Assembly (NCBI GenBank): GCA_905178155.1
Contig: CAJINV010000003.1
Span: 10,673,890 to 10,737,889 of the forward strand
Source: Amoebophrya sp. A120
Lineage: Eukaryota; Protista; Dinoflagellata
Direction of reading: 5' to 3'
DNA length: 64,000 bases
Both the position numbers and the translations under genes were made by a program. Position 1 is the first letter of the stretch; each line of letters starts with the position of its first letter. This document shows positions 580-61,600 of the stretch, in pieces. A model generated the notes under the pieces. The model was not told the origin of the DNA. It did not search any database and saw nothing but the letters and a program-made list of their open reading frames with translations.

Positions 580-2440
580 TTTTTCGCATGACGGGCGCAG
601 GTGGGAGCGGCCTCCGCGAAAGTGTATGAGACGAGTGCACGATCCCCTCTCCTCCTCGTTTGTCACGCAAGAACGCGACTCGAGTCGTTGCCTTCTGCTT
701 TTCGCACTGCTTGCGTGACCAGCTCCATGATTGGGCCAAACATTACTACGACGCGCTTGATGCATGTAATAAATTTATTGCGGCGCACAATTTAAGAACC
801 CAAACAGCACGTCGAGGAGCACTGCAAATCTGCATCTTGCTGACCACGCTTGTCGTGTTCGTGTTGACGCTGCCCATGGCCTCGAAATGAGGAGCAGGGG
901 GAAAGCGCCGGCGAGTGACGCACTCTCATAAAGCGAGTGGTCCTTCCTAAAGTACGCGGGTCTGGTGGGTCTTCCCAGTGTGCAAAGTGAGCTCGTGGAA
1001 GCGTACCAATTTGTTTCGAACTGGTGGCGATCTCTCAGCCACGAAGTCCCCGGGGTCGTGCGTGTGGAAAACATCGTCGTGCCGTACAAGATGACCAATC
1101 TAGACTTGTTGCGTCAGCGGGATCAGCCGCAGCCTTGGGAAGACGACATTGACGTGATGCTTACCTCCGTCTTGCATTGGGAAGAAATGGAAGTGAATCA
1201 GCATGGTGCTGCGGTTCCGGTTCCGCCGCAGGTTCTGGAGCGCCGGAAGAGTCAGTACCGCGGCTGGCACAGCGTCGCCGAGTGTCTGATGACTCCGGAC
1301 GGAGATCGGCATCCGCTTTTGAATCATGACGGGGAAGAGGTCGCGGCTCCAGCACAACCTGGCGGCGACTTGCCAGCGGTCGAAGAGCAGGATGAGCATC
1401 TTGTTCCCTCGCCATGCGAGCGCAACTCTACGTTCCACCGCGGGCAGCGGCTGGCGCAGACCATGCAGTTCTTCCTCCGCTACTTTCGGCACTGGTTTCG
1501 GTATGGCTACATTGGCACGCTAGGCAACGGGTACATCCACTTGCGAAAAATGTCCGCAATCGCGATCCCCGTGGATATTCAGGTCCGGCTGTATGAACCC
1601 CCCGGGCGCTACGTACCTGCGGGCCTGCTCTACGGGTGTCCAAGTGCACAACTCCAGCCCCCCCTCGTCGACCCCCTCATTTAAAGGGCAAGACCAGCAA
1701 TAAAATATAAAGTAGAATTCAATCCGCACCACGACTTGCAGTACAATTCAGGGCGGACAAGATTGTACTAGTAGTGCTGATGTTTCGGTTCCCGAACCCG
1801 AAACTTGTTGTTATACGAATAATCCGCTAAATAGTGCCAAAAGTGACACCAGGGACCGCGAGTGCAACAGTATTTGGTATTTTGCATAACAAACGAGGAG
1901 GGTCGGTGTCGGGGGAGTTGTGCACTCCCATAAGCGGGCGCCAGTGCACATTCACCCCGAGCGTTTTCTCGATCTCACCGCGTGGTATATCCCGGGTATC
2001 CCTTTGATGACCTGGAAGAGCTTCCTATTCCCTGAAACTTGACCATCCCCATCCACTTTTTGCCTCGTACATACATACCGCATCACTTCATGTCATTGTA
2101 TGCTAAATACAAATTGGATACGCGGCATGGTTAGTTTTTAGGGGATACTTCCCTCAGTGCAAGGTCCCAAAGTTCCGAGCTCACCCTGCTTGTGTTATGC
2201 AATGCAAAATACTTAAGCATCGTACTTGATGTCTACCTAGAGTTGCAATCAAAAATTTAATTCTTCCACGACGAGGACCAGAAAAAATGCCTTTTGCAAT
2301 GATCATTTGCCTCGTTAGGCCATAGTACAGATCTTTCATGCATGACATGAGCGGCAACTAGCACGAGAACTGGGAGTGCGATGTTTATTTTGCATTGGAT
2401 ATGTGTGAAGGAACTGCAACCGCGCTCGAAGGACATGCAT
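580..2440 (-). CDS. 5' part of a spliced gene of unknown function (exons ~2440-2402, 2190-2148, 2020-1933, 619-580; continues off-window)
   Basis: Removing elements 2196-2401 and 2026-2147 plus one repeat copy each leaves one open minus frame: MHVLRARLQFLHTSRVSSELWDLALREALPGHQRDTRDIPRGEIEKTLGVNVHWRPL; the other two minus frames hit stops. Confidence 0.6.
625..1932. mobile_element. 1308-bp introner carrying an internal ORF
   Basis: Left TATGAGACGAGTGCACGATCCCC...CCTCCTCGTTTGTCACGCAA vs reverse complement of right TATGGGAGTGCACAACTCCCC...CCCTCCTCGTTTGTTATGCAA; flanking repeat degenerate (AAGTG/AGCGG). Confidence 0.7.
887..1684 (+). pseudogene. Internal ORF of the 625-1932 element, unknown product; in-frame TAA at 929-931 upstream of the 239-aa ORF
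   Basis: ORF 965-1684 is protein-like (QFFLRYFRHWFRYGYIG); the same frame extends to ATG 887 across one TAA; antisense to the host gene; no family recognised. Confidence 0.4.
2026..2147. mobile_element. 122-bp introner (family C)
   Basis: Perfect DR CTTCC (2021-25 / 2148-52); TATTCCCTGAAACTTGACCAT...ATGGTTAGTTTTTAGGGGATA; its reverse complement aligns with 29052-29173. Confidence 0.9.
2196..2401. mobile_element. 206-bp introner (family A)
   Basis: Perfect DR TGTGT; TIR TATGCAATGCAAAATA vs TATCCAATGCAAAATA (15/16). Confidence 0.9.
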
Positions 2441-3056
2441 ATGTAGTGGTGCTACAGCTGCAGTTGCAGTGGTAGTGGATTGGATGTTGGATATATCGAG
2501 ACAAAAAACCCACTTCCCTTCGGCTGCAGCAACAGCAACTACAGGCTGACGCTTTTAATGACTCTCCCCATGCCTGTGGTTCTTTGTCTTTCTACCTCCA
2601 TAACCATAAGTAGCCACAAGGACCAGGATGAAGAAACAAGAAAGGTAGAGAAAAAAACAACAAGTACGACGAAGACGGGGCGGCTCTCGTTCCTACATTG
2701 AAGACATCATGCTCAGGTACCTCTCGTTGAGTGCAGCTTTATTGTGCCTGCTTTGCGTTTTTCTCTTCTCCCGGTAAGATGTAGAACGATCATGCGCCGT
2801 CAGAAGCTAGATCAGCTTTTTCTTTTTTCTGCTTTGCGAGAGGAGGAAAAGCAGAGCGAGAAAAAAAAGACGTTGCGCCTCGACATGCAACACAGAGCAT
2901 CTTCTGTCTTGCGTCTGTCGTTTACGTTTAGTGGATTCGTGAGATTCGCTGCGCCGGATCGCGCTGGCAGTACTGGGTTGTGACTGTGAGTGTGAGTTAG
3001 AGCTTTTCTTCGTTACAGTATTCGGAGAAGCTCGGGGACGACCGTTTTTTTTCAGC

Positions 3057-13400: not shown

Positions 13401-16400
13401 AGGAGAGACAGAAGAACAAGGTCGGCACGCCAGCGTCGCGCGCCGGTTCTCTCGACCGCCGTGGTCGTCAGACGCCGGCCCCAGACGAAAAGACGCTGCT
13501 TCACTTTGTGGCGCCCACCAACGCCTCTGCACCGCCGCAATTGAGTGCCAACACGCTTCTCGGAAGCGGCCTCACCCTAGCGGACTTGGAGACACGGTAC
13601 CCCGGGGCGGTCCGTTGCAGCGGTTTCTTGCCGCTAGTCGATGCAGTAACTAACGGTTTTCGTGGTGAAAAACTCAGCGTCGCCAACTATCCTGATGCGT
13701 TCTCTTCCGGCCCTGGTGGGGGAATCTGCAGCGGCGAAGTGGACATCAAAGCGCGCCACGGGCGAGACGCGGTGAGGAGCAATAAAGAAATCGCAGAGGA
13801 CCACGTCGACAAAGGTGTGAAACTAAACAACTACAACACATCAGGCATGTGCTTGTCGACGACGACGCAGGTCATCGCAATAGGCAACGGAATCGTGCCA
13901 CTTCTCCGGATTGGCGGGGGTCGGCTAGATGAAGATGCCCCGACCTGCACCAGCGGCAGCGGCGGTGGTAGCAATAAACAAAAAAACATTTCCGGCAGAA
14001 CATGGAGTTGGGCAGCCGAAAACTTTTCCGAATATGCTCCTACCCTGCGGGGGCACGGCACGCACGCAAACGCCTCCGACACACACGGCCAAACTACAAA
14101 TAACACTCAACAAGCCGGAAGTAAGAACTCATACTGCTTCAGTGCTAACACAGCATCCAGCAGAATGCAACAGCAGAGACTGCGAGCACTTGCCCGACCC
14201 TCCCTTGAAGGACGACTACTGCGCGTTCAACTCGCGCGGGTGCGCGAGGCTAAGCCTCCGAAGAACCCTGGATGCCTTGCTAGCTGCTATCATTGTCTGT
14301 CGTTTTCGGGCGGGTGTTGCTGCTACGGACTGCAAAAGGGTTGCGCCTGCCTCCGCCGGTGGTTCTGCGATCCCATCGTGCTTCCCCTTTGGCTGCAGCC
14401 GGCTTTCATGTTGTTTCGTGTGCTTTTCTTATACCTTCGCGTGTTCTGGCACTGCGGAAAGCGTGAAGAAGTGACGACAAAGCCCAGCGCCCTTGGAGGG
14501 TTGTCACTCGGAGTGTTGAAAAACGAGACGAGATACCTTGACATTCAGCGATTTCGCAGTCGCAAACGCGAGGACGAGTCCGGTCTCACCGTCGTTTGGA
14601 ATGACTACATTCAGACTGGTCGTTTGCAGTTCTCACCGACAACAAGTCGTGGGTCAGCGGCTTCACCAGGCAGTCCAAAGAGGAGTGCGCGCGAAGTCCT
14701 AATGGAACGACATCGAGAAGGCGAGCACCTGCTCACGCAGGAGGAAGATGCTGGAAGCGGAGCAGCACTTGTCGTGGATAGCCTTGTCAACCCTGACGAT
14801 CAGGTTGATGATAACGCTCAGGAGCGGAAGAACGAAACCACGGGAGAACAAGAGCACGACTACACTTTCGATCTTTGCCACGATGTTGAAGCACCGGGCG
14901 GAAGCGTTGAGGTGGACCTTGTGAGGCATTGTGATCGTCCCCTGCAGCTTGTGAAAGAGAATACGAGCAGCAGCAAGGAGATCTCCCGATCAGCGGGTTG
15001 TGAATCTACTTCCGCTGGATACTTTCACTGTCCTGAAAGAAATAACGAAGATATGAGGGAGCATTCTGATGGAGTTGCAGTTGCCACGCCGGATGCAGCT
15101 GATCATTCCCAACGCAACATGAGCATGATCGTGGAGCACAGCGATCACCACCACGATCACCACGTCACCCAATGCGGCAAGAACAGTACATCAAAAAACA
15201 GTCCGTCAGTTGTAATTCCTAGTCTTTGGCCAGGCGATGCGCGTTCGGAGAACACGGTAGCGCAGCGCCCATCCCCGCAACAGAACCGTGCACAGGATAT
15301 TGGTGCTGGTAGGCACCGGCGGACTCAGTTTCTCCGAGAAGCCGCCACGGCCCGGTCGCGTGAACTATGTGCCCAGCATAACCTCTCCCCCGCAGAAGCA
15401 AAGTCGCGGGTGAAGCGAGAGTTGATGAGCACGATACTAGATTCCAGCCACTCCCCGCTTCTCTCGATAAACACCGAGCTGCTCGAGGAGCACCAGAAAC
15501 TACAAGGAAGTCGAGCCATAAGGAAACCGACGTTGCGAAGCGATGTAGAGCAGGAGCGCGGCCATCACGTTCGAATTGACGCTGCCAGCACGGACCTGCT
15601 ATCGAACAAGGGCGAGGGAGATGATTTCGAACGTGACGAGGAGAGTACCAGTACGACCACACCAGCGAGGTTTTTTCATTTTCCCAAAGTGCCCGAGAAG
15701 GCTCCGGAGCAGCTTGAGCTCGAAAAGATTTTGGCGGGTTACGGGCTTGACGGGACTACAAACCGGCCTCTAGAGCTCTTTCGCGGCGGTCGGAAGCCAC
15801 GCCGAGTGGTCGCAGGCTCGCTGGCCCGGGCGGTGGGGAATAAGAATCACCTACCTTATGGATCTGTCAGGTTCAAAGGAGACAAAGTGAAAGAAACAAC
15901 AAGTATGTATGAAATATTTCGTCACGACGCTGCATCAAGAAACCTACCAGTTTGACTTTGACACACAATCTCTAGGCGGCGCATGTTGACAAATCTTGGC
16001 ATCGCCGAAATGCAGTCTGTCGTCTGTGACGCTGTTTGGGAAAAGGAACCTGCTTCGTCCGTTATGATACTATACTTACTTGTCCAGTTCTATCCGATCT
16101 CTCTCTACTACCCCTAGACAGGGTCACAAACACAATCGGCTCCACTTGCCACCCCTACAAGACAGTCACTTAGTTCCTTGCGTTTTATGCATTACCGAGG
16201 ATGGTGGTGATTGGAGATGGCATCGGTGCGCCTGACTGCGCGACCTGGTGGCCTGACCATCTGCGGAAAGGCGGCCTTAGGGGTGGCGTTGTGGTTTCGG
16301 TCGGTTTATTGGCATTGCAGATTTTGTCAAACTCACACTTTGCCGATTTCAATCCTGACGCTTCCATATCTCTGTGGATACAGTTAGTGCTTTACTGAAC

Positions 16401-21494: not shown

Positions 21495-21642
21495 CTATCG
21501 CCGCATATTGAAATACAACAAAGAGAATGGGCAGAATCGGGGGCAGCATTTATTGCATTGCATAAGGAAAAGGAAAAGCTCATCAGCATGCTAGTGGCTC
21601 ACCCAAGGCCATGGCCGGTTTTCCTTTGTATGTAATCCATTT

Positions 21643-22353: not shown

Positions 22354-22609
22354 AGAGAGGAAGAAGTGGCTGTACGCGCGCGCCCGCACATGGTATTGCA
22401 ACATAAGGTACTGGACGACGTGTACTGGTACTATAAATTCATGTTGCAGGCCCTGCAGGAACAGAACTTAATACTACGAGCTGAAGCACCAGCACAAGCG
22501 CCAGCGCGCTATGACAAAGATATATTCTTGCAGCTTGGTTATGGTTGCTGTACGAGGGGAGTTCTCATTTGGATGTTGAAAATTGATTTTACGAGGGCCG
22601 ACTTTTGTT

Positions 22610-27025: not shown

Positions 27026-27209
27026 AAAAACCGAGGAGCACGAGTTTAGATCTTCAAACTTAATAAATCAAAAAAGAAAAACGGCGTGCGCTGTGAGTCA
27101 ATGCATCTTTTTATTTTTCAAGAAAAAAATGAATGCAATTGCAAACGCATCTCACCATACCTATGTATTTCCAGCAACCTATGTGTTTCCTTTGAGCTAT
27201 GCCTATGGC

Positions 27210-32400: not shown

Positions 32401-33301
32401 TAAAGCACCAGGTTTCTTGACATAGTTATTTGAGCACAACCTCGCACCTGAACATGAACTGAGAGCCTGTCCGCGTTTGGATCATATCTTTGCGAAAAGA
32501 CAACATGATGAAGTTAAACAGCAATTCTAATTCATATTTAAGTAGGTCCCTCCCTTTGTCCATTGCTCTACGTCTACTGCTACGAGACGAAATCGAAAAT
32601 ACTCAGAAGATCGCTAAAATCAAACTCTAAACACCAGCGTTCCCACATTGATTGTGATCATGAGTGATGTTTTCGGTTCCGGTAGTTGTTTTCATTAATG
32701 AAATCGAATTTGAGGTATTGACGGACTGAAGTGTTCGAGAAGACAAAACGAAATCGCTTTTCTACAAAGAAGATGGCCAATGTGACAAATAAGTACAAGA
32801 CTTGCACTTACAAGTAGACACGCACGCGCCATCATATTGATCGGCAAAGCCATATACGAATGTTTCTATTTTTACGCTTTCGCGTCCTGAGCAAGGAAAT
32901 TGTTGACAGTTTCTTCTTCATGGTGTTCAGCGAAATTCTCCAGTGCCTCAACATACGTTTTTTTAAGCCCATTGACCTTATTGACCAAATTTCCTAGCAG
33001 CCCACCTACGTCTACCTGTACGACCGTAAGGAGCGAGCCCGCTCAACTCGGAAACCATAATCGACTTTCGTTCACTACTAGTTTACCGGTAATAGGTAAA
33101 AACTATTAGTTTTTACTTTGACCGGTTTAGGAGCGGCACCATTACCCTTGATCATCCTGCTGACCACGACCGGCGTTTGAGTTGGGGTGCTATCAGCTTA
33201 CGCGAAATCGAGAATAAGCCTACTGTTACTTGTAAAGTCAACTTCGCATTCTTTCTTTCTGGTAGATCTGGACTCTTCGTAGTTCCCCTTGAAGAACAAA
33301 A

Positions 33302-45000: not shown

Positions 45001-48000
45001 GCTATCCGGAGGAAAAACGCCCCGCCCGCCAGCACAATATCGCATCGTCAAGCTGGAAACTCAGATCCGCGTAAAAAGTGTACGCGGTAGTGATTATCAA
45101 GCACAGGCTTATCTTCATCACAAAGCCATCAGCTTGTGCTGCAGTTGATTCAAAAAGAAGTGCATACAAAAAACAAGACACGACTAGAAATACCAGGCGT
45201 CGTTTTAACGAGGTGCAGGCGCAACTTAAACTTCTTCCCTGGATTGGCATCACAAGGCTTGGGCGCTGAGTGTCGTGTTGCAAATAATTATTCAATTATT
45301 CGCAACACACTCACCCAATTAAGTTGTGTAGCATGTCCGCAAGTTGTCATCTCTGGCCGATGGTGGGGCGTTTTTAACCAGGATAGAGGTACGGTGTCGG
45401 GCGCGAGGAGATCCTCGACGAGAGGGAAGAAAGGCACATGCGCAGTCAGGAACTCATCCCAGATATGTTGGGACCACGCCACTCCCTCTTCTCCTCAAAT
45501 TTGAATGAAAGGCACCTGCGCAACAGACCAGAGGAGCAACGCTGCAGCTACAGCTTTTCTATTTTTCCTTGCGTGGCACTGGCATCAAAATCAAATGCAA
45601 AAGCAAAAGCTAAAAGCAAATCTAGATCTACCCGTCGCGGTGTGTAGTGTTGTTTTGGGTCCTTAATATTCCGAAGCTTGTCAATCAGACTACAGAGAAC
45701 GGAACTGGATCTGGTACAAATTCGGCCGAAAAGTGGCCTTCCACCCAGAGCCCATTTTTAGATGGACAAGGTTCACCAGGTTTCTTTAATTATTCGAGAT
45801 TTGCAGCTGACCACCGGGCGAGGGGCGTGGGTCCGTCCCACTTTTCACCCACCCGGCCGGGCGCGTGAAAAGTGAGACGGCCACTCTTCGGCCGAATTTC
45901 CTACGCCGCTCTAATGAAAAAAAACTGCGCACCTGGATGACAAACGCGCAGCCATGTAGATTCGAGCAACACAGAGTGTGCTTGCGGTAAATAATTTGAA
46001 GCTATGTGGAAATCGTCCTGATATGTATATGGTGCCCAATGGTCCTGGTGTGTAGTTGTCTTGCACCTTGCGTGTGGACCAAGAGTGATAACAACCCTAA
46101 AGCTCCTGACGTTGGTGCTCGCACGTTTTGAGTTTGACTTTGCCGTGCTGTCGCCCTAGTAGTTTGCGCGCGTAACAAAAAGAGCCCAGTTTACTCTGTC
46201 ATGCAAAATGCCAGCGCAGCCGCAGCGGGAGGAGCTGCTCGTGCTAGATGATTCGCCTGCAGCTGTGGCACAGCTGACGCCTACTAGTTTACGTGATGAC
46301 GCATTTGGCTGCGATTGACCTGCCTGATGGTGCGGGAGGTCAAGCGCCCATGAGTGTGCCACCTACAGACAAAACAGGGGGCGGCAGTCACAATGGCGCG
46401 GTCTGCATGTGGACGTGGCGCCCCCTGGGTCCGGCTGCGCACTGCGGCGTGGTCATGCTGGTCTCTGCTTATGCATCGAGTACGAGTTGGGGAGACGTAC
46501 AAGGATAGTACGAGCATTAAGAAGATGAAGCCACTTCATAAAAGAAAATAATGCAGGACAAGAAATAAAATTAAAAATGAACAGAGGCGGGAGAGTTGCG
46601 CATGTCCATACCAGATCTCGGAGCGACATCAGATGGCTATAATCTCATGATGACCAGCACGGGGGACTGGAAGCCAGCCGAAAGCATGCGGCCGGAGGAG
46701 CACCAACCCTCGGGGACCGACCATTACAGCATCGCTTCTCGGCCAGATGCGAGTAACTTTCCCGTGTTCCAGACACTAAATCCCACAAATGCGAGGACGG
46801 AGGAAGAACGAGTAGAAGACCAAGACTACGCATTTCATTTGTTGTCAGAAAAGGACAAACACGACACTAGTGTGCCCTGTACATGGTTCGCGCAGACTGA
46901 TGCACAGGTATCGTTTCTTCTGATGATCTAACTATCTTCTATGTACATGTAGATAGAAATGTCGATAGCGTTGAAACAGAAAATCGCATCCAAAAATCGT
47001 TGATGATTTTCCTAGGAATTGCCGCCAGTGGTCCACGGCTGAGTCGTTCGGTCTCAGCTGCTACCGTTTTGCTCTGCACTTCACTGCGCCATTCATGTGG
47101 ATCGATTTTTTCTTTGAACAAGTTAGTAAAAGCGAAAAGGAAAAACCAAACCAACTACTCAGATCGGTAGTATCCTGCGCACCCAATTCGGGCCAAACAC
47201 ACGCCTGGGCGTTTTGGATGATCCCCACGCTGGAAATTTTCGAAATTTCAATGAAGACTCCAGATACGCAAAAGACAACTTTCTTTCGCAGACGGGCTCA
47301 AGCTTGATCAACAATAACGCGCACAAACCCAACGCGGCCATGGGCGCATTTTCCTTTACCAGCGGAGCGGGGGGAGCCGGGACGATGAACCGGAGTTGTA
47401 CAAGCTTCCAAAACTTCGTCACACACACAGCGCTCAACAAGCGCGGCGTGGAGGAAAACCGCTATTACGGACGCTACAACGGTCCTACTTCGGACGAGCT
47501 CGAGTACGGAGACAAGTACTGTGTTGGCTCCGTGCAATATGACAGAAGTGCGTGCAAAACTACTCCCCCTCCACGTCATTTGAAGAGCTGCACGACGGAG
47601 GCACGATCACACATGAAAACGGAACCACAAATGCAGAGCGTCGAGCAACTGTTTTCATTTTCAAACTGATCATGCAGCAAATAACGCCAAAAATTAGAGG
47701 ATGCCTCAAGAAAGCATAAGCAAGGCTTCTAGAACAACAACTGCAAGTGTAGAAGAATTTGGCATGCTTATCCTCATTATGATGCGTGAGCGTGGCGAAA
47801 GGAGTAGGGGGGCGGTGGAGTTGTGAGCTCATATGCTACCTGTGGACCGGATCTTCAACCCCGGACTCCACTCGCAAGATATTCTGAACGACGAAAAGAT
47901 TGCAATCCTGTACCAGTTTCTTGTGATCAAACTTTGCTTTTTTCACTGAATGCCTTCAATGCCCACGGAGAAGGTGAAGCATACTTAAGTATATTGCTTC

Positions 48001-49823
48001 TCGGCTTAATCATATTGGAGGTCGATCGGCAGGTTTGACTTCTCCGATGTAATTGATGCCCAGCACTTTCACTTTCGAGCCACGTTCTTTATGCCCCGGA
48101 ACAGTACTCAATTTTTTGACTACCAGGTATAGCCACACCCCGACGGATATCCACAGCAAATATTGGTATGTCTGGGTCTCTTGTGCAATTGAATTCTCAT
48201 CTGCCAGCGAGCCGTATGCAGGAGGATTGGACTACGGAAGGACGTCACGCAACTCCTGCATGCCGTGGTCAGAACCAGAAGTGCAGGCGCTAAGTAGCAT
48301 GAGCGCAGATTTTGCAACAAGTGCAAGGTCTTTACTTTGTCGTATAGCGACCCCACGACAAACATGACAATCATAATTCCTCCGTCTCAATGAATCATGA
48401 TATACGTGCTCGCAACTCGGCCAAAGTATAGAAGATGGGCATATTATTTTGAGAGAAGTCCCGCAATGGCAATACCGATTTTGGATGACACGCACACACT
48501 GAGGCTGACACTGTCACTGGACGCCGACGGCGCATCACAAGGCTGCTTAATTTATAGACGCAGAGCCAGACTACAACACATTTGCGTTGCATACGGGAGA
48601 TTTGCGACGAGGACGTAGCGTTTGACGCACGTGGTGATGCTGCCCTGGCCACCCAGACAAGTATGTTTGCGCACTACACCGACGAAGTTTTATATCCCAC
48701 GAAAAAAGTATTGATTCGCTGTATGGATTTTGCAAGGTTTGCATCACAAGCTTGCTCTAAAAATTGTCATGCGAGCCTCTAGGCACATAGAATGTGAATG
48801 AAAAGCAAAAGATAAAGAATTCCGCTGGCGCATAAAAAAGCTACCTCCACCTCGTCGAACTCACATAAGAACTCAAATCTGAATACGTTTTTGTAAGGTG
48901 TATGTGACAAGTTTTTTGTGATCTTACTTCCTCCACCTTTCTATTTTTATTTTTAGGGCCGTGAGTGCCGAAAGTACCAACGTCAACGACCTGCCCTTAG
49001 ACCTCTGATGTCATGCGAGCCTCCGAAGGGAGCACGAAAACAACGGTAAAAAACCACTCTTTTGCATGTGTCGCAAGAAAAACTCTTGCGAGATGCATTT
49101 TCTGCATAATTACATAGTTTACAGCGAAACAGTTTTTTCTTGCGATATTTTAACCACGCCTGGCGGCCGACTGCCAGAGCTTGGCACGCGTAATCCCGTC
49201 TCGCGACGGATGGTATTCTATGTAAAAACGTCCCCAGCACCCCATAGTCACGCTGGGAATTTTGCAACACAAATCGAGAAGCTTTGGCAGTCACGCATGA
49301 CAAGCGTCTCTCTGTAGTGTCGTGCAGGGTAGCAAAGAAAGCCGCGTCACGAACCCATCTGGTGATCCCGTCCACAACATTACAAATGCTAAAAGTAAAA
49401 CACGACGATAATGTACATTAATGCTTCTCATCGGGATGCGCATTACAAGCGTTCCTGCGTATGCAAATCATCTGCGTGACCGTGATAACTTGTATGAAGG
49501 AAGCATAGTGCTGTGCCGCACTTCTGCTTAGCATGACGACTATGGGGTACGGACGTTTTTACACAGGATAGATGGTGCTGGAGATTCAGGACGCGCCCTT
49601 TCCTGGGTCCGTGGGCTGGGATGCCAGCCGCAGCGGTTTCTCCAATATGGGCGACTACAGTGCGCAGCGGCCCAGTCTCTTCGGGCACGCAGTGGAGCAA
49701 GCGCTCGTAAACCACTACAAGCTCCGGGATGCGTTACGCAGCGTGTCGGTCAAGGTGATGGCAGCAAGCAATCGCGTCCAGAAACCATGCATGCAAGACC
49801 GAAAAATCGATATCTGCCTGTAA
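36071..49823 (+). CDS. Ankyrin-repeat + caspase-like (peptidase C14) protein; exons resolved 36071-~40120, 3' exons (46600-49823) only partly resolved
   Basis: Spliced: RGQTLWNLAAIGDVDGLL...RTPLWIAAAAGHLEAVKLLIALGANV...TPVEIAKKSGQPHVVYYL; RRIALLIGNTHY; DVALFYFAGLG; SIVILDACR; p10-like RPSLFGHAV...LRSVSVKVMAASNRVQKPC at 49572-49823. Linkage across 40.1-46.6 kb is inferred. Confidence 0.7.
36095..36416. mobile_element. 322-bp introner (family A)
   Basis: Perfect DR AGATG; perfect 13-nt TIR TATGCATTGCAAA. Confidence 0.92.
36466..36736. mobile_element. 271-bp introner
   Basis: Perfect DR CTTTG; TATGTAAAGAGAAAATAAGTG vs TATGAAAGAGAAAAAATAAAGTG; splice GQTL|WNLAA. Confidence 0.9.
36795..37264. 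mobile_element. 470-bp introner (family B)
   Basis: TATGGGAGTGTCAGGTTGAAGATCGA vs TATAGAACTGCCAGGCTTGAAATCGA; DR TGAAG/CGAAA; frame kept into SESVDQREP. Confidence 0.82.
37686..37920. mobile_element. 235-bp introner
   Basis: Perfect DR ACAGC, TAT...ATA; splice KSGQ|PHVVYYL completes an ankyrin repeat. Confidence 0.88.
39040..39334. mobile_element. 295-bp introner (family B)
   Basis: TATGGAAGCGTCAGGTTTGAAAGCGACAAAGT vs TATGGAGGCGCGAGCCTCGAAATTGACAAAGT; DR ATGCC/ATGCT. Confidence 0.85.
40164..41677. mobile_element. 1.5-kb non-autonomous TIR element with internal 109-bp tandem array
   Basis: Perfect 21-bp TIR TGGTAACCAAATGCGTGCGCG; GC-rich subterminal palindromes; no clear TSD. Confidence 0.8.
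40648..41080. repeat. ~4 x 109-bp tandem repeat
   Basis: CCACTTGGAA recurs at 40651, 40760, 40869 and 40978. Confidence 0.92.
42570..42735. repeat. 13-bp minisatellite (TTTTAGTTTTTAC)n
   Basis: AG recurs every 13 nt (42670, 42683, 42696, 42709). Confidence 0.9.
47538..47833. mobile_element. Probable 296-bp introner
   Basis: DR TGCAA/TGCTA, TATGA...TCATA ends; frame continues as PVDRIFNPGLHS; TIR weak. Confidence 0.55.
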
Positions 49824-51994: not shown

Positions 51995-54900
51995 ATGGCG
52001 GACGACTACGATCACCTCATAAAATTGTTGCTGTTGGGTGATTATGGACTGCAAAAGTGTCGTCCCAGTATGAGAGATTGTTTTTGTTTGCATGATTTGC
52101 AATAAAGAATACTTCTCTTTCTCGAGAAGCTCGCGATTATATGGAATTCCCTCAAGCCATAGACCTGTCATGCCCGACGCCAACTGCAATCAGTGTGACT
52201 ACGAGCGTCATACTTTTGCAATGCATAGCGATTCAGCTGTAGGCAAATCGTCGCTGCTGATGAGATTCACCGAAGACAAGTACGTCGTGGTTGCAGCAGT
52301 AGTTATAGTTGATAATGTTGCTTTGATATATAAATTTATGATATAGATATTTCACTATGATCATTTCCGCAAAGCCAATTGTTGACCTTGCCTCTCGCAC
52401 TTGTAGACTGAACAAGATACCTCCACCACCCTTGTGCAAAAAAAAAAAAACACCAGATTCGAACAGAATTTCGTGATTACCATCGGCGTTGATTTTCGCA
52501 TGAAGACGATCGAGCGAGGCAACAAGAAGCTACGGGTGCAGGTTTGGGATACCGCGGGACAAGAGCGGTTTCGCACGATCACGCCGGCCTACTACCGAAG
52601 TGCAATGGGAGTTGTATACGAGAGTGCATAAATCCTCCTCGCTCCTTCGTCCCCTCGCTTGATGATGTTATTCAACAACCACGCAGCTTTGCCAGTTGTT
52701 CATTTTCAATATGTTCGCTTGACCATGTGGCAATGACTGAGAAGGGACTCCAGCAACTCAAACAGTTACAGTAGCAGCACTACAATCCGCCATAAATTTC
52801 AATTTGTCATGCAGACGACATCGACTTCAAATTCAATCACCTTTGCAGCTAAGTACTGCTTCGGCTTCTGTTGCTGCTCGTCATGGCCTCCAAGAAATGA
52901 CGGGGAGTGGGACCGAGTTTTGTTGCACTTTCATATGCCCATGTGCTACGACATAACGGATATCAAAAGGAAACACGATCCCCCGTCCCCATATCGAAAC
53001 GAAGTTTCTGATGTTGGATTTGCGTAGACAAATCAGACCTGTCTTGCTGGAGAGGACTGCAGGCCCATATCAAGCCGGAGTAGAGAGGTTTTGGCCTGGG
53101 CGCTTAGCATGAAGAACGTCCGTAATCTAGAAGGCCCAACAGCATCGCAAACTGTTGGTCATGTAGTGATCTAGGGCCTACCTCCACGCAAGACTGAAGC
53201 TTCTACGAGATCCCGAAACGCCTGCGCTCTACATGCAAACGATGACGAGTTGAGCAAATCAGGACCCTAGGACGTTCCGCGTTTTGTTCTCCCGATCTGT
53301 ATGCCCTGGGCTAGGATTTTACTCAGGACCGGCGCCCTGGATAAAGCCCTTACCCAGGATGGCCGCCCTAGATCAAACCCTAGCCAGGAAGATGCTATGG
53401 CACCAATTTGGCCGACCTCAGGAGGTCCCAGATTCTGGCCAGTTCCTGGATCAAAACTTTAGCCAGGAGCGCCGTCCTAGATAAAGTCGCAGCATACAGA
53501 AGGGGAGACGTCTCATGATCTTAGCGCTGAGGTCTTGTGATGGTGGAATGATGAATGATGGCGCGCCTTGGATGGTGAATCTTCACAGGATGCAACGCAG
53601 CCAGAGGCTCTCCCCCTGTCTGCTCAGAGATTGAAGCGCTTGCGGTGATTGGCAGACCCTATCAGGTAGAAGCTTTGGCCACTCAGTGGGGCGGGTGTGC
53701 TCAAAGTCCAGCACAAACACAAAGCGCCGGCATAATGAGGCGGAACCTGTGGCGTTGCCATTTTGCAAGACAGGCGCGATCTGTGGCCACAAATCAGCAA
53801 AAGAAATACTCGAAAACATACCATGCCAATATGAGGAGGGGGAGTCTTTCCTTTTCATAACGGACGACGCGACTTTCGACAACGTGGAGATGTTATCCTG
53901 TGCAAAAGTATCGCATTCGTACTAGCAATGCCAGCTTCGCCTGGAAGTAGGGATTAGAAGATACGCAAACGTCAGCTAGCTAGCATGGCTAGATAGCGAA
54001 TTAGAAAGAAAAAAGCGCCGGGCCCCGAAGCAAAACAAAGCGCCGGCGCGCCCAATGTGCTTCGTTGTCGCGGCTCCCGCGCGCCCAGATTGGTCGCTCC
54101 ATTTCCGGCTCCCCAATCTGATCGTCCCGGCTCCGAGGTTCCCGATCTGGTCGTCCCGGCTTCGGCGCGCCCAATCTGGTCAACCCGGCCCCGAAGGTGC
54201 ATGGACGTGACTCGGTGGCGCCGGACAACTTCGGACCCGTCGGATTATTTTTGGTTGTCCGGCGAAGGTCGTCGGGCGACTTTTGGCCGGCCGTCCGTTC
54301 GAGCGCCGGCCGTCGGACGACTTTTCGCCGTTCGGCGGCCGTCGGACGACTTTTGGCCGTCCGACGGCCGTCGGGCGATTTTTGGCTGTCCGATGGCCGT
54401 CGGGCGACTTTTGGCCGTCAGACAACTTTCGGTTGCCCGACGGCCGTCGGACGACTTTCGGTTGTCCGGCGGCCGTTGGGCGACTTTTGGCCGTCCGACG
54501 GTCGTCGGGCGACTTTCGGTTGTCCGACGGCCGTCGGACAACTTCTGAGCCGTCGGGTCCGACGGTCGTCGGGCGACTTTTGGCTGTCCGACGGCCGTCG
54601 GACAACTTCTGAGCCGTCGGGTCCGACGGTCGTCGGGCGACTTTTGGCTGTCCGACGGCCGTCGGACAACTTCTGAGCCGTCGGGCGAATTTTGGTTGTC
54701 CGAGGATGGCCGTCGGACATACAACTGCTGAGCCGTCGGGCGACTTTTGTCCCAAGCTCAAACTCGAGCTTGTATCTCAAGTTCAATCTCGAGCTTCTTG
54801 TGCCTCAGACTCAAACTGGAGTTTCTATCTCAAACTCCAGCGTGTATCTGAGTTTCAAACTCGAGCTGGTGTCTCAAAATCAAACTGGAACTTGTGTCGC

Positions 54901-57729
54901 AAACTCGAGCCTCACACTTAAACTCAAACCTGAAGCCCAAGCTCGAGCGTGATGAAACTTAAGCTCGAGTTTGAAACTCGAGCTCATCGATAACTCATAT
55001 TAATACAAACAGAATCCCCTGGCCACAGAGAAACGGCAAAAAATTTCAAGACGCGCGCGCGCGCGCGTTACGCGCGCGCGGGTAACGCGTGCGCGAGCGC
55101 GGGCGCGCGTAATGCGCGCACGCGCGTAACGCGTACAGGGCCGGCAGGTTGCGGGGGCGGGGAATGGGGGGGGCCGCGCCCCCCCCCCCCGGCCGGGCAG
55201 GCAGGCACGCAGCCGGAAGGGAGCGGCAGCTGGCGGGGGCCGCGCCCCCTCCTCGGCGGCCGGGGGCCGGGCGCCGCGGGCACGCAGGCAGGCGGCCGGG
55301 AGCGGCAGCTGCCGGGGGCGGGGAGTGGGGGGGGCCNNNNNNNNNNNNNNNNNNNNNNNNNNNNNNNNNNNNNNNNNNNNNNNNNNNNNNNNNNNNNNNN
55401 NNNNNNNNNNNNNNNNNNNNNNNNNNNNNNNNNNNNNNNNNNNNNNNNNNNNNNNNNNNNNNNNNNNNNNNNNNNNNNNNNNNNNNNNNNNNNNNNNNNN
55501 NNNNNNNNNNNNNNNNNNNNNNNNNNNNNNNNNNNNNNNNNNNNNNNNNNNNNNNNNNNNNNNNNNNNNNNNNNNNNNNNNNNNNNNNNNNNNNNNNNNN
55601 NNNNNNNNNNNNNNNNNNNNNNNNNNNNNNNNNNNNNNNNNNNNNNNNNNNNNNNNNNNNNNNNNNNNNNNNNNNNNNNNNNNNNNNNNNNNNNNNNNNN
55701 NNNNNNNNNNNNNNNNNNNNNNNNNNNNNNNNNNNNNNNNNNNNNNNNNNNNNNNNNNNNNNNNNNNNNNNNNNNNNNNNNNNNNNNNNNNNNNNNNNNN
55801 NNNNNNNNNNNNNNNNNNNNNNNNNNNNNNNNNNNNNNNNNNNNNNNNNNNNNNNNNNNNNNNNNNNNNNNNNNNNNNNNNNNNNNNNNNNNNNNNNNNN
55901 NNNNNNNNNNNNNNNNNNNNNNNNNNNNNNNNNNNNNNNNNNNNNNNNNNNNNNNNNNNNNNNNNNNNNNNNNNNNNNNNNNNNNNNNNNNNNNNNNNNN
56001 NNNNNNNNNNNNNNNNNNNNNNNNNNNNNNNNNNNNNNNNNNNNNNNNNNNNNNNNNNNNNNNNNNNNNNNNNNNNNNNNNNGGGCGGGGGAACGGCGGC
56101 CGCGGGTCGGGCGGGCAGGCGGCAGGGATCGGCAGCGGGCCAGGCGGGGGCGCCACGGCCCGATGGGGGCCCGTTACCGATGGGCCCCTGGCTTAACGTT
56201 TAGATGGGGCTGCGCGCCGAAGCGCGGTTGGACGACACCGACGGCACTTTTTGAATTAACGTTTGGACGAAAATCTTGGCGCGCAGTTTTTTATTTTTCG
56301 AAGTTTCTTAATATTTTTCGAACGAACGACAGCGCGCGCGGTTTTTCTACCTAGCCGCACGAATTCCGCGGCCTTCAGTCTGTAACTTTTTGCTTTAACT
56401 GTACTGGCCAGGGGCCGGACTGCTTTCCCTAGTATTGTAGATATATAAGATTGCTTGCAAACATGCATTACAAATCTTTTTCTTGAGGTCGTAGATCAGC
56501 ACGACTACAAATTTCATTTCTCATGCTGGGAAAATTTAAATTTGTAAATGTAATGCGTTTATTTTTGTACGAGTACTACGTACAGAGCGATATTTTTGCA
56601 ATGCATAGATGTGGCTAAATAACCTCGACCAGCACGGCAGTTCCGCTATGACCTTCGTAGATGGAGTCTTAATCTCAACCAACGGAGCATAATTTATTTA
56701 TAAAGAAAAATAAATGATGAAGAAGATAATCTGTCACTGTCTAGCTCTACTCGTCTGGGTACTGAGCATAACATTAGACCTGGCGCTCCTGCAGATTAGG
56801 AGCGCCAGGTCTCGTGGCGACAGGAATTCGTTGGCATTTAAAGACGCAGCACGCGGACGAGACTCTCACGTCACTGTCTACAATTACAATTGCTCCAGTT
56901 GGGTTTGATGCTTCTTCAGCTGGCCATTTCATATCCGACGTCCAGAAAATTTTGATCGGCAACAAGAGCGACCTGGAGGAAAAGCGAAAAGTGCCGAAGG
57001 AGCGCGGCTTCGAGCTCGCGGCCAAGCATAAAATGCAGTTTTACGAGACCTCCGCGAAAACGGGGGATTTTGTCGAGGACTATCCACAGAAAATTTACCA
57101 TGCGCGTATGTCTCATTGTGTTTTTGCATGACGTCAATGTCAATGATTTTTACTCTTTATAAGTTTTTCGTATTTGCAGATGCAGTGTCATTGTGTATGA
57201 TTGTGATTCCAAGCGGCGAAGAAAATTCGTCGTGTGTATCATTATTTTGTAATGATCCAAATAGTAGAAGTAGACGAAAAGAAATAAGTACTAAGTACAA
57301 GGATTGTCGCAATCGCGCTCATTGTTCCAGTAAATCTAAATGATCCTGTTGCGCGCTCTCTCGCTATGATTTCCGTTTTGCTGAAAATTAGTAGAACAGG
57401 TCATGCGTTTTGTACTAAGTGTAAGTACGTTGACGTCGCATGCGGGAAATGATTTGTACTCCTTGTATAAGGGCGCCTTCAATGACATCGCCGACGCCGT
57501 AGTTGTCTGTAGGTACTCTGGCGATGCAGCAGGTAGCAATACTGCAAGTCCCTCGGCAGCGGGTGGCAAAAATACAACTGGAGCAAGTGCGCCCTCCGGT
57601 TCTAGTGCAGCCGCCTCCTCAGCAGGAAGCGGCTCAGCAGGGCAAAGCGGTAACATCACGCTCACAGCAGAGAATGCAGCAGGTCCGGGAGGACACAAGA
57701 ACAAAAAAAAAGGGAAGTGTGCCTGTTGA
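51995..57729 (+). CDS. Rab8/Sec4-like small GTPase, 244 aa, 8 exons (51995-52042, 52233-52279, 52457-52616, 52941-52960, 53865-53893, 56613-56646, 56939-57080, 57475-57729)
   Basis: [15 protein letters not shown]|[17 protein letters not shown]|[13 protein letters not shown]...[24 protein letters not shown]|MCYDIT|[10 protein letters not shown]|[11 protein letters not shown]|[13 protein letters not shown]...ETSAK...VED|AF...CAC; all G motifs and a CXC prenylation site; 735 nt in frame. Confidence 0.93.
52043..52227. mobile_element. 185-bp introner (family A), Rab intron 1
   Basis: TIR 14/16 (TATGGACTGCAAAAGT/TATGCATTGCAAAAGT); DR GTGAT/GCGAT; interrupts the P-loop. Confidence 0.92.
52617..52935. 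mobile_element. 319-bp introner with decayed DR, Rab intron 3
   Basis: TACGAGAGTGCA vs TATGAAAGTGCA (10/12); flanks TTGTA/TGCCC no longer match, but element+5 nt removal gives AMGVVMCYD. Confidence 0.8.
52961..53859. mobile_element. 899-bp introner, Rab intron 4
   Basis: Perfect DR ACGGA; TIR TATCAAAAGGAAA/TATGAAAAGGAAA extending ~35 nt. Confidence 0.92.
54230..54750. repeat. Tandem array of ~30-bp units built on the palindrome CCGACGGCCGTCGG (higher-order ~60 bp)
   Basis: Repeated GTCCGACGG(C/T)CGTCGG(G/A)CGACTTT units; followed by CTCGAG-rich and CG-run segments. Confidence 0.9.
55337..56082. other. Assembly gap (746 N)
   Basis: Run of N flanked by very GC-rich sequence. Confidence 1.
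56647..56933. mobile_element. 287-bp degenerate introner, Rab intron 6
   Basis: DR TCCGC/TCCGA; TATGA...TCATA; needed to join HGSS to [10 protein letters not shown]. Confidence 0.85.
57081..57469. mobile_element. 389-bp degenerate introner, Rab intron 7
   Basis: DR AGGAC/AGGGC; TAT...ATA; joins FVED to AFNDIA. Confidence 0.85.
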
Positions 57730-58654: not shown

Positions 58655-61600
58655 ATGCAGCTGCATGAATTCATCTACTTTATCTTTTTGTTCTTTGCAT
58701 CTTCAAGCGTCCTTCATCCTCTTGGCCTTGTCGTCAGCGCCAACGAGGAGTACAAGGTACTAGACCCTGTTTACGCCGGCACCAACATTGTATACGAAAA
58801 CCCGAATATATATGCCGGAAGCAAGTGCCAAGACAACCAGATTTTTCGTGACGAGGCAAACTTGCCGTGCTCTTACTGGATCGGGAAGGCCAGCTGCCGC
58901 GATGAGGCGACGCAGCGGAAGGGCTACTCGGCGTTCGGCGTCGAGCAGTTGCTTTGCAACTGCCCACGGGCCTGCGGCTTGGGAGAGACTGGCAATTGCC
59001 GGTCGGTCCGGTGCCTGCGGCGATGCCGCGCACCCAGGGGGCCCGTGCACAGCATTACGCAACTTGGACAGGGCGCGACGCATTTGCTGCCGAACTACTG
59101 CGTTCTTGCATTGCCAAATGGGCAATCCTGCACGCATCCGCACATGTGCCAAAGCGGCTACTGCGACCCGTTTCAGCGTCAGTGCCGCCAATCCTCTTCG
59201 GTCGCCGGCTTCGCCGTTTCGGACACAGCCTCCATGACGTCATATTGACTGTAACTATGTCTGGGTCTCCTGGTAATAGGATGGACATAGAGCCTTTATT
59301 TTCGTGCAGCAAACTCACAAGACCACAAATCAAATTCAAATCAAGCACTTCTGTTTTTCTTTTTGCCACTGCATGAGCGCCAAGAACGGAAAGGTCCTGC
59401 TGTCCATTTCTTGCTACGCATAGAATACTAGCGAATTACTTGCGTCTTCATCCGACTTGGCAGGTTGCACGCACATCGGGACTGTGATGGCGGAGCCGGA
59501 TCTGAGTCGGATCTCCAAGCCATGAGAAGAAATGTGTACCTAAAGCAAGTTCCAAAAAATGCACGTTGACAAAAACAATAAATGCGCGCAAGTGATTATC
59601 TTCAAAGCGGCTTTGAATGGGTAATGGGTAAGCCCGCCAGCGCCAGCCCCAGACATATGCGCCACGCATACGTCAGATTCTGTCGCGATACGCACACAAG
59701 GCACCACGGACGAGGAGCTGGAGTCTCTCTATGTTTGCGACGGTCGCGGCGAGGTGCTGTCGTCCGCCAAATGGGGTAAGTGCCACAATTTTGGCGCTGA
59801 CGTCGATCCAAGCCTGGCACAATGCCGCTGCCGGTTTTCGTTTTTGCTGCAGTACTGGGCCAACCACTGGGCGCCCTGCCATACACAAGCGGCGGGAAAG
59901 AACTTTTGCACCTACTTCGGCGACCAAGACCGGCACGTGCGAATCGCGATGAAGTTTTCCTTGCTTCTTCCAGAGGACGCAACTACCGCCACTTTCTCCC
60001 GCGATGTGTACATCAAAACCGCTGTTGCCGCCGCTATCGAGACAGCTGTCGCCACACCGTGTCCAAGCCTTGCCGTGTTCGACATTGCGCTGGAAACGAT
60101 TGAAGTGAGCGGCTCTGGCTTTCGCAGTGCGCCCCCGTACAACGCGGTGCCTCGGGAAACCAGGATCGTCGCGAAGCTGCTTGTCGCACAGTCAAAGGCA
60201 ACACTGGCAAGAACTTGCCTCGTGAGCTCGGCGTTTCGCACCGCATTTCGTGCCGAATTCGGTGCGGATTACCGCGACCGCGAACACAAGTGCCGGTTTT
60301 CGCGGCAGCTTCTGAACGAGGGAAGCGCCGCGGTCTTTTGCAAAGGCGAGCTCGCTGCTGTTTACGCAAACTCCTACGCGCAACTGTTTCACCAGAATGC
60401 CGTTGACGGGTCGACGGCCTATCAACAGGCATACCTAACCATTTTTCAGCGGACGCAAAATTTGATTACGGAGCCGGTGATTCTGATTGAATCCGTGGAT
60501 GCGGTGTCCGAACTGCCCGCGCACGAGTCGAATGCAGCTTCGGCGACCGACTATGAAACTATCTCAACAGTGGCTCGTCCTTTCGCAAATAACGGCGCGG
60601 AAGGCAATTTCAGCTCGGGACTACTGGCGGCGTCTTCTGCCACGACTACCACGACAGCAATTTACTTTTCCAATAACCACCTGCCTTTGCCAGAGCAGGG
60701 TGCTGACATGGAAGCGAATACCTTCCACACGAGTACCACGACAACCACCACCACCAATCTAGCCTATTCACTGCGCGCCAGCGTGAAGCTGTCTGTCATC
60801 CCGCCGCCCGGAACGATTTGCATTATGAGAGTGTCAAGGTTGGATGAAATCGACAGGGTGAATAAAACATTGCCTCGTGCGTATTCAAATCGATACAAAT
60901 GCAAGTGTCTCCCTCCATCATTCGTAAGTGGTGCCTTACTAATTTAGCCAACGTTCTTCAGATTGCTGCTTTATCATTCTGTCATGTTGCGTAGCGGAAA
61001 GACCGGCCGGGGCGCTCCTCCTGTCCTGTTCTTTCGCAACCCTTCCCGTGCGGCTAGCCACGCTTACTTACAGCCGGCCTCACTTTCTATTCCTGCAAGA
61101 CAGGCACAACTCGAGGCCCCGCATTATGTCTTGTTCTTGCGTTGCAAGTTTATTCCGCCACTTTCTTGTCGATTTCCAAACAATCCTGACCACGCTTCCA
61201 TATGCAGCGCAGCGTACTTAGTGTCACAGCTAAGCAGTCCTTTCCGCAACGGGATCGCACGATATCTCGACGTTGCGCCGGAGTCCGTTAGTCTGCTAGA
61301 CGCCAACTGTCTACCGGAGTACCTAGTCCCAACGCCGGTAACGAGCACGAGTGTAGCTGGAGCAACGCCCGCCTGGGCTGCAACCAGCAGCGCGATTGGA
61401 GGTGGTCCGGAGCGGGTGCGCAAACAAGTACGGCGGCGATTGGGTATCGGTTTTCGCGCTGAGATCGCGTACCAGGTAAGTGGCTTCACAGACAGAGACA
61501 CCGCTAGCGCCGCAGGCGACCGCGTTTCGGTCACCGACAGTGCACAGGCCGCGGTGTTTGAGCAAACGCTGCATGCATGCTTCTCGGAGCACGACCCGGA

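What the first reader, a model, noticed from the sequence alone, without database searches (positions are those of the whole stretch)
580..61202. Window-wide system of TAT...ATA transposon-introns with 5-nt target duplications, mostly without GT-AG
Seen: 26 complete elements start TA(T/C) and end ATA, most with clear terminal inverted repeats and a 5-nt direct repeat. Removing element + 5 nt restores the frame across eight unrelated genes, including the Rab P-loop and the methyltransferase GxG motif. Most cannot be given GT-AG ends in any register. Established: IR+DR non-canonical introners are reported in Amoebophrya, so the class is not new. Inference: one transposition chemistry (5-bp TSD, TAT ends) makes most introns here, and they are removed by a structure-guided or highly relaxed splicing mechanism.
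Basis: partly seen in the sequence, partly recalled or inferred. Interest (0 to 1): 0.9.

Follow-up and report, generated by a model that had tools for sequence, protein, structure and literature searches.

The report
Transposon introns with one hidden register
Genes of the marine parasite Amoebophrya are riddled with already-described transposon-like inserts that lack normal splice signals yet are missing from the assembled transcript, and all 23 that could be tested fit one cutting rule (one base before the insert, four bases after it), which likely means the transposon's own ends serve as the splice signal.

Summary
The window is Amoebophrya sp. A120, and the elements are the introners of Farhat et al. 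2021, who already reported TAT-starting inverted repeats, 3-5-nt direct repeats and 65% non-canonical introns. I list 34 complete elements; 24 are shown removed by an RNA-type contig (10) or by annotated proteins alone (14). Element plus 5 nt is removed; 33 of 34 cannot be GT-AG. What I did not find in print is a fixed register. Where the two duplicate copies differ, the only cut fitting all 23 testable elements runs from 1 nt before the TAT to 4 nt after the ATA. Intron +2 is then T in 24 of 24, +3 A in 23, and -7..-5 ATA in 24, while +1, -2 and -1 are free. The paper called the sites variable, but its nine commonest A120 non-canonical pairs all have T at +2. A remodelled spliceosome is most likely (about 0.55); a hairpin nuclease-ligase is not excluded. 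No transposase lies in the window. RNA evidence is one assembled run over 11 kb. The scan noted similar introns in three other genomes, none in this one.

The parts
1..579 (+). 3' part of an element cut by the window start (ends ATA at 579)
   Evidence: PWM hit; P0015 resumes at 582
625..930 (+). element, repeat 4/5
   Evidence: annotated protein P0015; registers -1..5 fit
1637..1932 (+). element starting TGT, repeat 3/5; intron 1636-1936
   Evidence: P0015; registers 3-5 fit
2026..2147 (+). element, 122 nt, exact repeat
   Evidence: P0015
2196..2401 (+). element, exact repeat
   Evidence: P0015
6240..6799 (+). element candidate in DUF273 gene, repeat 3/5
   Evidence: arms and frame only; untested
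15857..16368 (+). element, repeat 3/5
   Evidence: P0016; registers 3-5
16426..16738 (+). element, exact repeat
18139..20741 (+). 2.6-kb element starting TAC, repeat 3/5; intron 18138-20745
   Evidence: P0016 allows register 4 only
20928..21323 (+). element, repeat 4/5
   Evidence: P0016
21476..21687 (+). element, repeat 3/5
   Evidence: P0016; registers 3-4
24623..26001 (+). 1379-nt element, exact repeat; the only one that reads GT-AG, and does so in register 4
   Evidence: frame only
29052..29173 (+). 122-nt element splitting the GxG motif of a methyltransferase-like gene
   Evidence: frame only
29507..29875 (+). element in the same gene, exact repeat
   Evidence: frame only
31313..32402 (.). 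intergenic element, TAC...GTA ends, 118-nt arms 92% complementary, exact repeat
   Evidence: not known to be an intron
36095..36416 (+). element, exact repeat
   Evidence: frame only
36466..36736 (+). element, exact repeat
   Evidence: frame only
36795..37264 (+). element candidate, repeat 3/5, same family as 15857
   Evidence: untested
37686..37920 (+). element, exact repeat
   Evidence: frame only
39040..39334 (+). element, repeat 4/5
   Evidence: frame only
44766..44949 (+). element, repeat 1/5; intron 44765-44953 (GT..TC)
   Evidence: RNA-type contig joint 44764>44954 with no slide: register 4 only
45003..45385 (+). element, repeat 4/5
   Evidence: joint 44997>45386, registers 0-4; GC-AG at register 3 also fits
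45464..46610 (+). 1147-nt element, exact repeat, weak arms
   Evidence: joint 45458>46611
47538..47833 (+). element, repeat 4/5
   Evidence: joint 47536>47838, registers 4-5
48148..48593 (+). element, repeat 3/5
48693..49147 (+). element, exact repeat
   Evidence: joint 48687>49148
49214..49570 (+). element, exact repeat
   Evidence: joint 49208>49571
52043..52227 (+). element in the Rab P-loop, repeat 4/5
   Evidence: P0001; joint not among the rows shown
52617..52935 (+). Rab element starting TAC, repeat 1/5; intron 52616-52939 (AT..CC)
   Evidence: table 5c: register 4 only; P0001 registers 4-5
52961..53859 (+). Rab element, exact repeat
   Evidence: table 5c; P0001
53894..56607 (+). Rab element, 2.7 kb with tandem repeats and an assembly gap, exact repeat
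   Evidence: loose end at 53893 continues in the next exon; P0001
56647..56933 (+). Rab element, repeat 4/5, no predicted stem
   Evidence: P0001, registers 0-4
57081..57469 (+). Rab element, repeat 4/5, no predicted stem; GA-AG alternative rejected
   Evidence: P0001, registers 4-5
59243..59670 (+). element, exact repeat
   Evidence: P0014
60824..61202 (+). element, repeat 4/5; AG-ending register 5 rejected
   Evidence: P0014, registers up to 4

Best explanation
These are the introner elements of Amoebophrya A120: non-coding inserts with TAY...ATA ends and a 5-base flanking repeat, likely placed by a DNA transposase encoded elsewhere, that are missing from the transcript together with 5 flanking bases and are likely cut in one fixed register by a remodelled spliceosome. 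DNA step (inferred): a DDE transposase acting in trans joins TA-ended elements to a 5-bp staggered cut; the elements here carry no enzyme. RNA step (register shown for 23 elements, enzyme inferred): the intron is the last base of the left repeat, the element, and the first four bases of the right repeat (N|TAY...ATA NNNN). This restores the pre-insertion message whatever the target sequence. The element's first T and A fall on intron +2 and +3, the canonical 5' site letters, so the transposon end supplies the donor minus its G; the acceptor is measured four bases from the invariant ATA instead of being read from AG. In most elements a stem closing at +2:-5 would hold the two sites together and may stand in for U1, which was not detected in this strain; the stem appears helpful, not required. 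An A of the ATA as branch point is a guess.
For: Removal: 9 of 11 elements in the 11 kb laid are skipped by run X1's contigs, a tenth follows from the contig length, one joint was not among the rows shown; DNA-type run X5 runs through them. Register 4 fits 23 of 23 testable elements, register 5 fits 16, 3 fits 18, 0 fits 15; three elements allow 4 only (44766, 52617 by RNA; 18139 by protein). Chance under a uniformly random register: 2.5e-5 for the 11 informative elements, 3.2e-3 for the 7 not used to form the rule. Two near-canonical escapes are passed over in the annotated proteins: GA-AG at 57081, an AG end at 60824. In register 4: +2 T 24/24, +3 A 23 and G 1, +4 T 22 and C 2, -7..-5 ATA 24/24, +1 free. 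The 3' ATA shows 0 changes against 15.6 expected from the decay of the repeats (7.8 at half rate, P about 1e-4). Farhat Table S4: all nine listed A120 non-canonical pairs are NT-NN, all nine A25 pairs TT-NN. 83 of 89 spliceosomal proteins and U2, U4, U5, U6 present, U1 not detected. Precedent: the U2 spliceosome removes transposon-derived non-GT-AG introns in Fritillaria. Closing stem predicted in 15 of 20 elements against 3 of 120 shuffles.
Against: No lariat, branch point or snRNA dependence was tested. +1 shows no G bias (10 of 34) and the 3' end little AG (3 of 34), although spliceosomal exon ligation normally pairs the terminal bases. ATA at -7..-5 does not match the usual branch consensus (recalled), and the four GT-AG introns here lack it. 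RNA evidence is one assembled run whose kind the tool only guesses; two raw-read runs laid 0 reads. 14 of the 24 elements rest on annotated proteins, which derive from transcript alignments and are not independent of RNA assembly. For 1637, 18139 and 21476 one end was relocated after I saw the protein; for 45464 and 47538 both ends were found from the joint. 12 of 23 elements do not constrain the register within 0-5. Farhat's Fig. 3 legend calls the sites variable. No transposase found.
Confidence: 0.55

Rival explanations
1. Same elements and same fixed register, but removal is spliceosome-independent: a nuclease reads the TAT/ATA-closed hairpin, cuts 1 nt before and 4 nt after it, and a ligase joins the exons (euglenid-like, or a domesticated transposase or tRNA-type ligase).
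For: +1, -2, -1 are unconstrained; closing stem in 15 of 20; the one TGT start keeps a G-U pair with ATA (sequence); U1 not detected; euglenid hairpin introns are excised as circles by an unknown route.
Against: 5 of 20 elements have no predicted closing pair yet are absent from the annotated proteins; the cut lands exactly where T and A become +2 and +3, in A120 and by Table S4 also in A25 whose repeats start TTA; no candidate enzyme is known to me.
Confidence: 0.27
2. Relaxed splicing with no fixed register: each element is cut somewhere within its 5-nt repeat, as the original paper implied.
For: Fig. 3 legend and text of PMC7789003; family-level repeat calls of 2-5 nt and mixed 'co-opt/carry' labels in the Gozashti table; 12 of 23 elements here are uninformative; 45003 also fits GC-AG at register 3.
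Against: Register 4 is the only one common to all 23; P 3.2e-3 on held-out elements. Apparent variability is what aligners give when a joint can slide in a repeat (inference).
Confidence: 0.1
3. The elements are excised from the DNA in some life stage, like ciliate internal eliminated sequences.
For: TAY ends recall ciliate IES ends (recalled, no call).
Against: DNA-type run X5 contigs cross the elements at even depth (42-45) and show none of the element-skipping joints among the rows displayed; 50 joint rows were hidden and only one DNA run was laid.
Confidence: 0.04
4. Artefact: reverse transcriptase jumps across hairpins between direct repeats, so the joints are not splicing.
For: Hairpin plus direct repeat is the classic template-switch signature (recalled).
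Against: Two elements with only 1 of 5 repeat bases matching are skipped precisely (44766 has no sliding letters); retained elements would break Rab six times; the skipping contig has depth 225.9 against 5.3 for a contig inside element 48148 (a rough measure).
Confidence: 0.03

Closest known systems
Introner elements / non-canonical introns of Amoebophrya sp. A120 (Farhat et al. 2021, PMC7789003; abstract, sections 10-12, 16, 25, 32, 36, supplement legends and Tables S4, S7 seen; figures not seen)
   Same: Same strain; inverted repeats starting TAT + 7 nt + A-run; 3-5-nt direct repeats (5 bp in Fig. S19 legend); non-GT-AG; no internal transposase.
   Different: The paper reports no clear splice signature and variable sites relative to the hairpin; here one register with invariant +2 T and -7..-5 ATA fits all tested elements, and the repeat is 5 nt throughout.
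A120 introner families of Gozashti et al. 2025 (PMC12130899; passages, section 6, 21 of 58 A120 rows of supplement file 8 seen)
   Same: TIR DNA transposon-derived introns; some families carry integrase-like ORFs (family 38).
   Different: Families are given 2-5-nt repeats and mixed splice-site origins; no single chemistry or register stated in what I saw. I did not map window elements to their families.
Fritillaria borealis non-canonical introns (bioRxiv 10.1101/2025.08.15.670264 abstract, introduction, one discussion section; PMC11282704 section 6; Henriet 2019 not read)
   Same: Transposon ends serve as splice sites in a genome with few GT-AG introns; removed by the U2 spliceosome.
   Different: Ends are mostly AG-AC/AG-AT, U1 is conserved; here +2 T is kept, +1/-2/-1 are free, U1 undetected.
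Euglenid nonconventional introns (PMC11282704 section 6)
   Same: Hairpin-closed, repeat-flanked, non-canonical; stem offset from the splice sites.
   Different: Stem pairs +4..+6 with -8..-6 (CAG/CTG); purine/pyrimidine junction rule; circular products. Here +2..+4 pair with -7..-5 (TAT/ATA); products unknown.
IS3EU / GingerRoot DNA transposons (PMC10045372 passages)
   Same: TA..TA termini, integrase-like clan suspected for A120 introners.
   Different: Their duplications are usually 6 bp; here 5 bp; no transposase available to compare.

Membership tests
Amoebophrya A120 introner elements | Host is A120 | tested here: met
   Three window exons are 100% identical to proteins named Amoebophrya sp. 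A120
Amoebophrya A120 introner elements | Inverted repeats starting TAT, about 7 variable nt, then an A-run | tested here: met
   32 ends of 16 elements: TAT 32/32, A 29-31/32 at positions 11-13; a subset has GTGCAC/GTCAGG-type arms instead
Amoebophrya A120 introner elements | 3-5-nt direct repeat at the boundaries | tested here: met
   5 nt; exact in 16 of 34, >=3/5 in 32
Amoebophrya A120 introner elements | Removed from mRNA with non-GT-AG ends | tested here: met
   (9 direct, 1 by length, of 11 laid)
Amoebophrya A120 introner elements | Repeated across the genome | tested here: met
   DNA run X5: many contigs share element ends and diverge exactly at 52227 (20 contigs) and 53894 (21 contigs); related elements within the window
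Non-autonomous TIR DNA transposons (MITE-like) | TIRs, fixed-length duplication, no transposase inside | tested here: met
   0 of 75 reading frames from long elements and one neighbouring region hit a transposase family in Pfam
Non-autonomous TIR DNA transposons (MITE-like) | Cognate autonomous element; empty sites in relatives | not testable with these tools
   No genome held; metagenome scans found no copy and no orthologous genomic locus
IS3EU / GingerRoot | TA..TA termini | tested here: met
   33 of 34 start TA, 34 of 34 end TA
IS3EU / GingerRoot | 6-bp target duplication (usual) | tested here: not met
   0 elements at k=6, 12 at k=5; not filed under this family
IS3EU / GingerRoot | IS3-like DDE transposase | not testable with these tools
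   none in the window
U2-type spliceosomal intron | GT(GC)-AG termini | tested here: not met
   1 of 34 GT-AG in register 4
U2-type spliceosomal intron | U at +2 and purine at +3 | tested here: met
   24 of 24 for both
U2-type spliceosomal intron | Lariat with branch adenosine; snRNP dependence | not testable with these tools
   needs lariat sequencing or knock-down
Euglenid-type nonconventional intron | CAG/CTG stem at +4..+6/-8..-6 | tested here: not met
   position counts
Euglenid-type nonconventional intron | Excised as circles without lariat | not testable with these tools
   no raw reads of this strain laid

The most novel reading that the evidence does not exclude
Amoebophrya has a second, sequence-defined splicing code written by its transposons: N-U-A-Y ... 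A-U-A-N4, read by a machine that ignores the G+1/AG pair and is not the lariat-forming spliceosome (a hairpin nuclease-ligase, possibly transposase-derived). It would make almost any coding insertion of these elements harmless and would account for most of the strain's roughly 43,000 non-canonical introns.
Probability: 0.25. Interest if true: 0.9.

Novelty: already known. Interest (0 to 1): 0.5.

Why it matters
How Amoebophrya removes over 60% of its introns without GT-AG is an open question since 2021. If the register holds genome-wide, the reported diversity of splice sites collapses to one rule: the variable letters are just the transposon's target site. That gives exact coordinates for lariat, circle and mutagenesis tests, corrects intron annotation, and explains why these elements can invade coding sequence freely. 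The elements themselves are not new.

Tried and rejected
Whole-genome search: no genome held. Reads were laid on 43000-54000 only, so registers elsewhere rest on annotated proteins. Transposase in long elements: 0 of 75 frames (one Fer4_8 hit at E 0.006, below cut-off). Rfam: 0 matches. Metagenome scan with one element end: 0; with Rab: 4 intronless relatives, no empty sites. Opposite-orientation insertion of one family: inconclusive for 2026/29052 and 16426/29507 (scores 109 vs 115, 140 vs 145), suggestive for 625/1637 (interior 31 vs 77, shuffles 49 +/- 10). My first ends 1631 and 18136 (the latter with a perfect repeat) were wrong by the annotated proteins and were moved to 1637 and 18139. 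Candidates from the relaxed scans (72, 80) without RNA, protein or clear frame support were dropped, among them 30098-31296, 27112-27706, 37237-37730. The GT share of 26-30% in large Gozashti families fits the rule, but their AG share (24-34%) exceeds the 3 of 34 here, so I treat those annotated ends as slid by aligners and do not count them. IS3EU membership rejected on duplication length. Novelty searches: searches found no paper stating a fixed register; subscription papers (Roy 2023, Henriet 2019), Farhat's figures 3 and S19-S25, 37 of 58 A120 rows and files 13-14 of the Gozashti supplement, and the bioRxiv supplement were not seen and could state it.


Full report
Observation. A strict scan for a k-base repeat flanking TA[TC]...[AG]TA with complementary arms gave 12 elements at k=5 and none in 10 shuffles; k=4, 6, 7, 8 gave none and k=3 gave three. 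Relaxed scans, an end profile, RNA joints and annotated proteins extend the list to 34 complete elements and one cut by the window start, 30% of the window. The repeat is exact in 16, 4/5 in 9, 3/5 in 7 and 1/5 in 2. In DNA-type run X5, 20 and 21 contigs from other loci share an element end and diverge exactly at 52227 and 53894, which delimits the mobile unit at ATA and TAT independently of my motif.

Identity. Exons from three genes are 100% identical to proteins named Amoebophrya sp. A120; a fourth window protein, P0016, came back unnamed. Farhat et al. 2021 (PMC7789003) describe for this strain non-canonical introns with 8-20-nt inverted repeats starting TAT, seven variable bases and an A-run, and 3-5-nt direct repeats; the Fig. 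S19 legend shows 5-bp repeats. The window's ends match this. The class is known, in this very strain.

Removal from RNA. Laying runs on 43000-54000, contigs of X1 (RNA by the tool's guess; it also skips two GT-AG introns, as only RNA would) skip six elements in listed joints, two more through the letters-between table, and one through a loose end that continues in the next Rab exon. Each skip is element + 5 nt. X5 runs through the same DNA. X8 and X9 laid nothing. A model removing seven elements and three GT-AG introns is 2375 nt, the length of the X1 contig, with a 591-residue frame that shortens if either repeat copy is kept twice. So 9 of the 11 elements in that stretch are shown removed, one follows from length and one joint was not displayed. 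Fourteen more elements are absent from annotated proteins, which the model reproduces exactly; that annotation was built from transcript alignments allowing non-canonical sites, so it is indirect RNA evidence. Ten elements rest on frame or structure only.

The register. With identical repeats a joint can slide; mismatched repeats fix it. Calling k the number of left-repeat bases kept, one search gave k=4 (44766), k=4 (52617), k<=4 (45003) and k=4-5 (47538). I noted the rule and three predictions before seeing proteins. The proteins then gave 0-4 (56647), 4-5 (57081, rejecting a GA-AG reading), <=4 (60824, rejecting an AG end), 3-5 (1637, 15857), 3-4 (21476) and 4 alone (18139). k=4 fits 23 of 23; the next best fit 18 and 16. 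Under a uniform random register the chance is 2.5e-5 overall and 3.2e-3 for the seven held-out elements. For three of these one end was relocated after seeing the protein, the other end having been fixed earlier; 12 of 23 elements are uninformative within 0-5.

What the register shows. The intron is N|TAY...ATA NNNN. In the 24 supported elements +2 is T in 24, +3 is A in 23 and G in 1, +4 is T in 22 and C in 2, and -7..-5 is ATA in 24; +1, -2 and -1 take any base, giving 29 different end pairs among 34 elements and one GT-AG. The repeats have decayed at 26 of 120 positions while the 3' ATA shows no change in 72 (15.6 expected, 7.8 at half rate), which suggests the terminal triplets are kept for splicing; the ends were chosen by motif within the narrow range the joints allow, so this is somewhat inflated. 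Farhat's Table S4 lists nine predominant A120 non-canonical pairs, all NT-NN, and nine for A25, all TT-NN, though the text reports no clear signature and variable sites. Searches and the passages and table rows I read did not state this rule; figures and several supplements were not visible.

Structure. A stem closing at the element ends is predicted in 15 of 20 elements against 3 of 120 shuffles with ends kept. Five lack it, including two Rab elements absent from the protein, so the hairpin is probably not required.

Mechanism. DNA step, inferred: a DDE transposase acting in trans. TA..TA ends resemble IS3EU and GingerRoot, but those usually make 6-bp duplications; Gozashti 2025 reports A120 introners with integrase-like frames; none of 75 frames tested here hits a transposase. 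RNA step: I favour a remodelled U2-type spliceosome, because the cut places the element's T and A on the canonical +2 and +3 in both strains, the machinery is nearly complete with U1 undetected, and Fritillaria offers a precedent. Against this, +1 and the 3' dinucleotide show no pull towards G and AG and no branch was tested. A hairpin nuclease-ligase route, as suspected for euglenids, remains open at about 0.27. Template switching is unlikely, since two elements with almost no repeat are skipped precisely. DNA-level excision is not seen in the one DNA run laid.

Verdict. Real, already known as a class, with an apparently unreported fixed register that makes the splicing mechanism directly testable. 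Interest 0.5.

Noticed in passing
43726-44562, 46908-47162, 47910-48126, 52280-52456: Four ordinary GT-AG introns share transcripts with the elements; none has ATA at -7..-5.
   Followed up: yes
48180-48597: A low-depth X1 contig (5.3 against 225.9) lies inside element 48148 and stops exactly at the predicted last intron base. It could be excised intron RNA, but contigs cannot show RNA ends and this is one case.
   Followed up: no
31313-32402: Intergenic element with TAC...GTA ends, 118-nt arms at 92% and nested internal inverted repeats; looks recent; no exact copy of its end in metagenome contigs.
   Followed up: partly
30098-31296: TAT...ATA span with an exact 5-nt repeat but weak arms, starting just after the methyltransferase-like stop; not counted.
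   Followed up: no
58655-59143: An in-frame ATG 163 codons upstream of the annotated start of P0014 gives a hydrophobic N-terminus; the annotation may be truncated.
   Followed up: no
about 22600-23200 and 27250-27900: Two similar stretches covering intergenic DNA and the gene starts of the sialyltransferase-like gene and the next gene, seen by eye; local duplication.
   Followed up: no
40120-41700: GC-rich region with tandem units and a palindrome inside a caspase-like (label recalled, no call) gene region; possibly another large insert; no Pfam hit in its frames.
   Followed up: partly
23121-23885: Glycosyltransferase family 29 (sialyltransferase) hit, E 5e-17; its link to the next frame needs an intron I could not place.
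   Followed up: partly
whole window: All gene models found lie on the + strand, so the mirrored register on minus-strand genes could not be tested.
   Followed up: no
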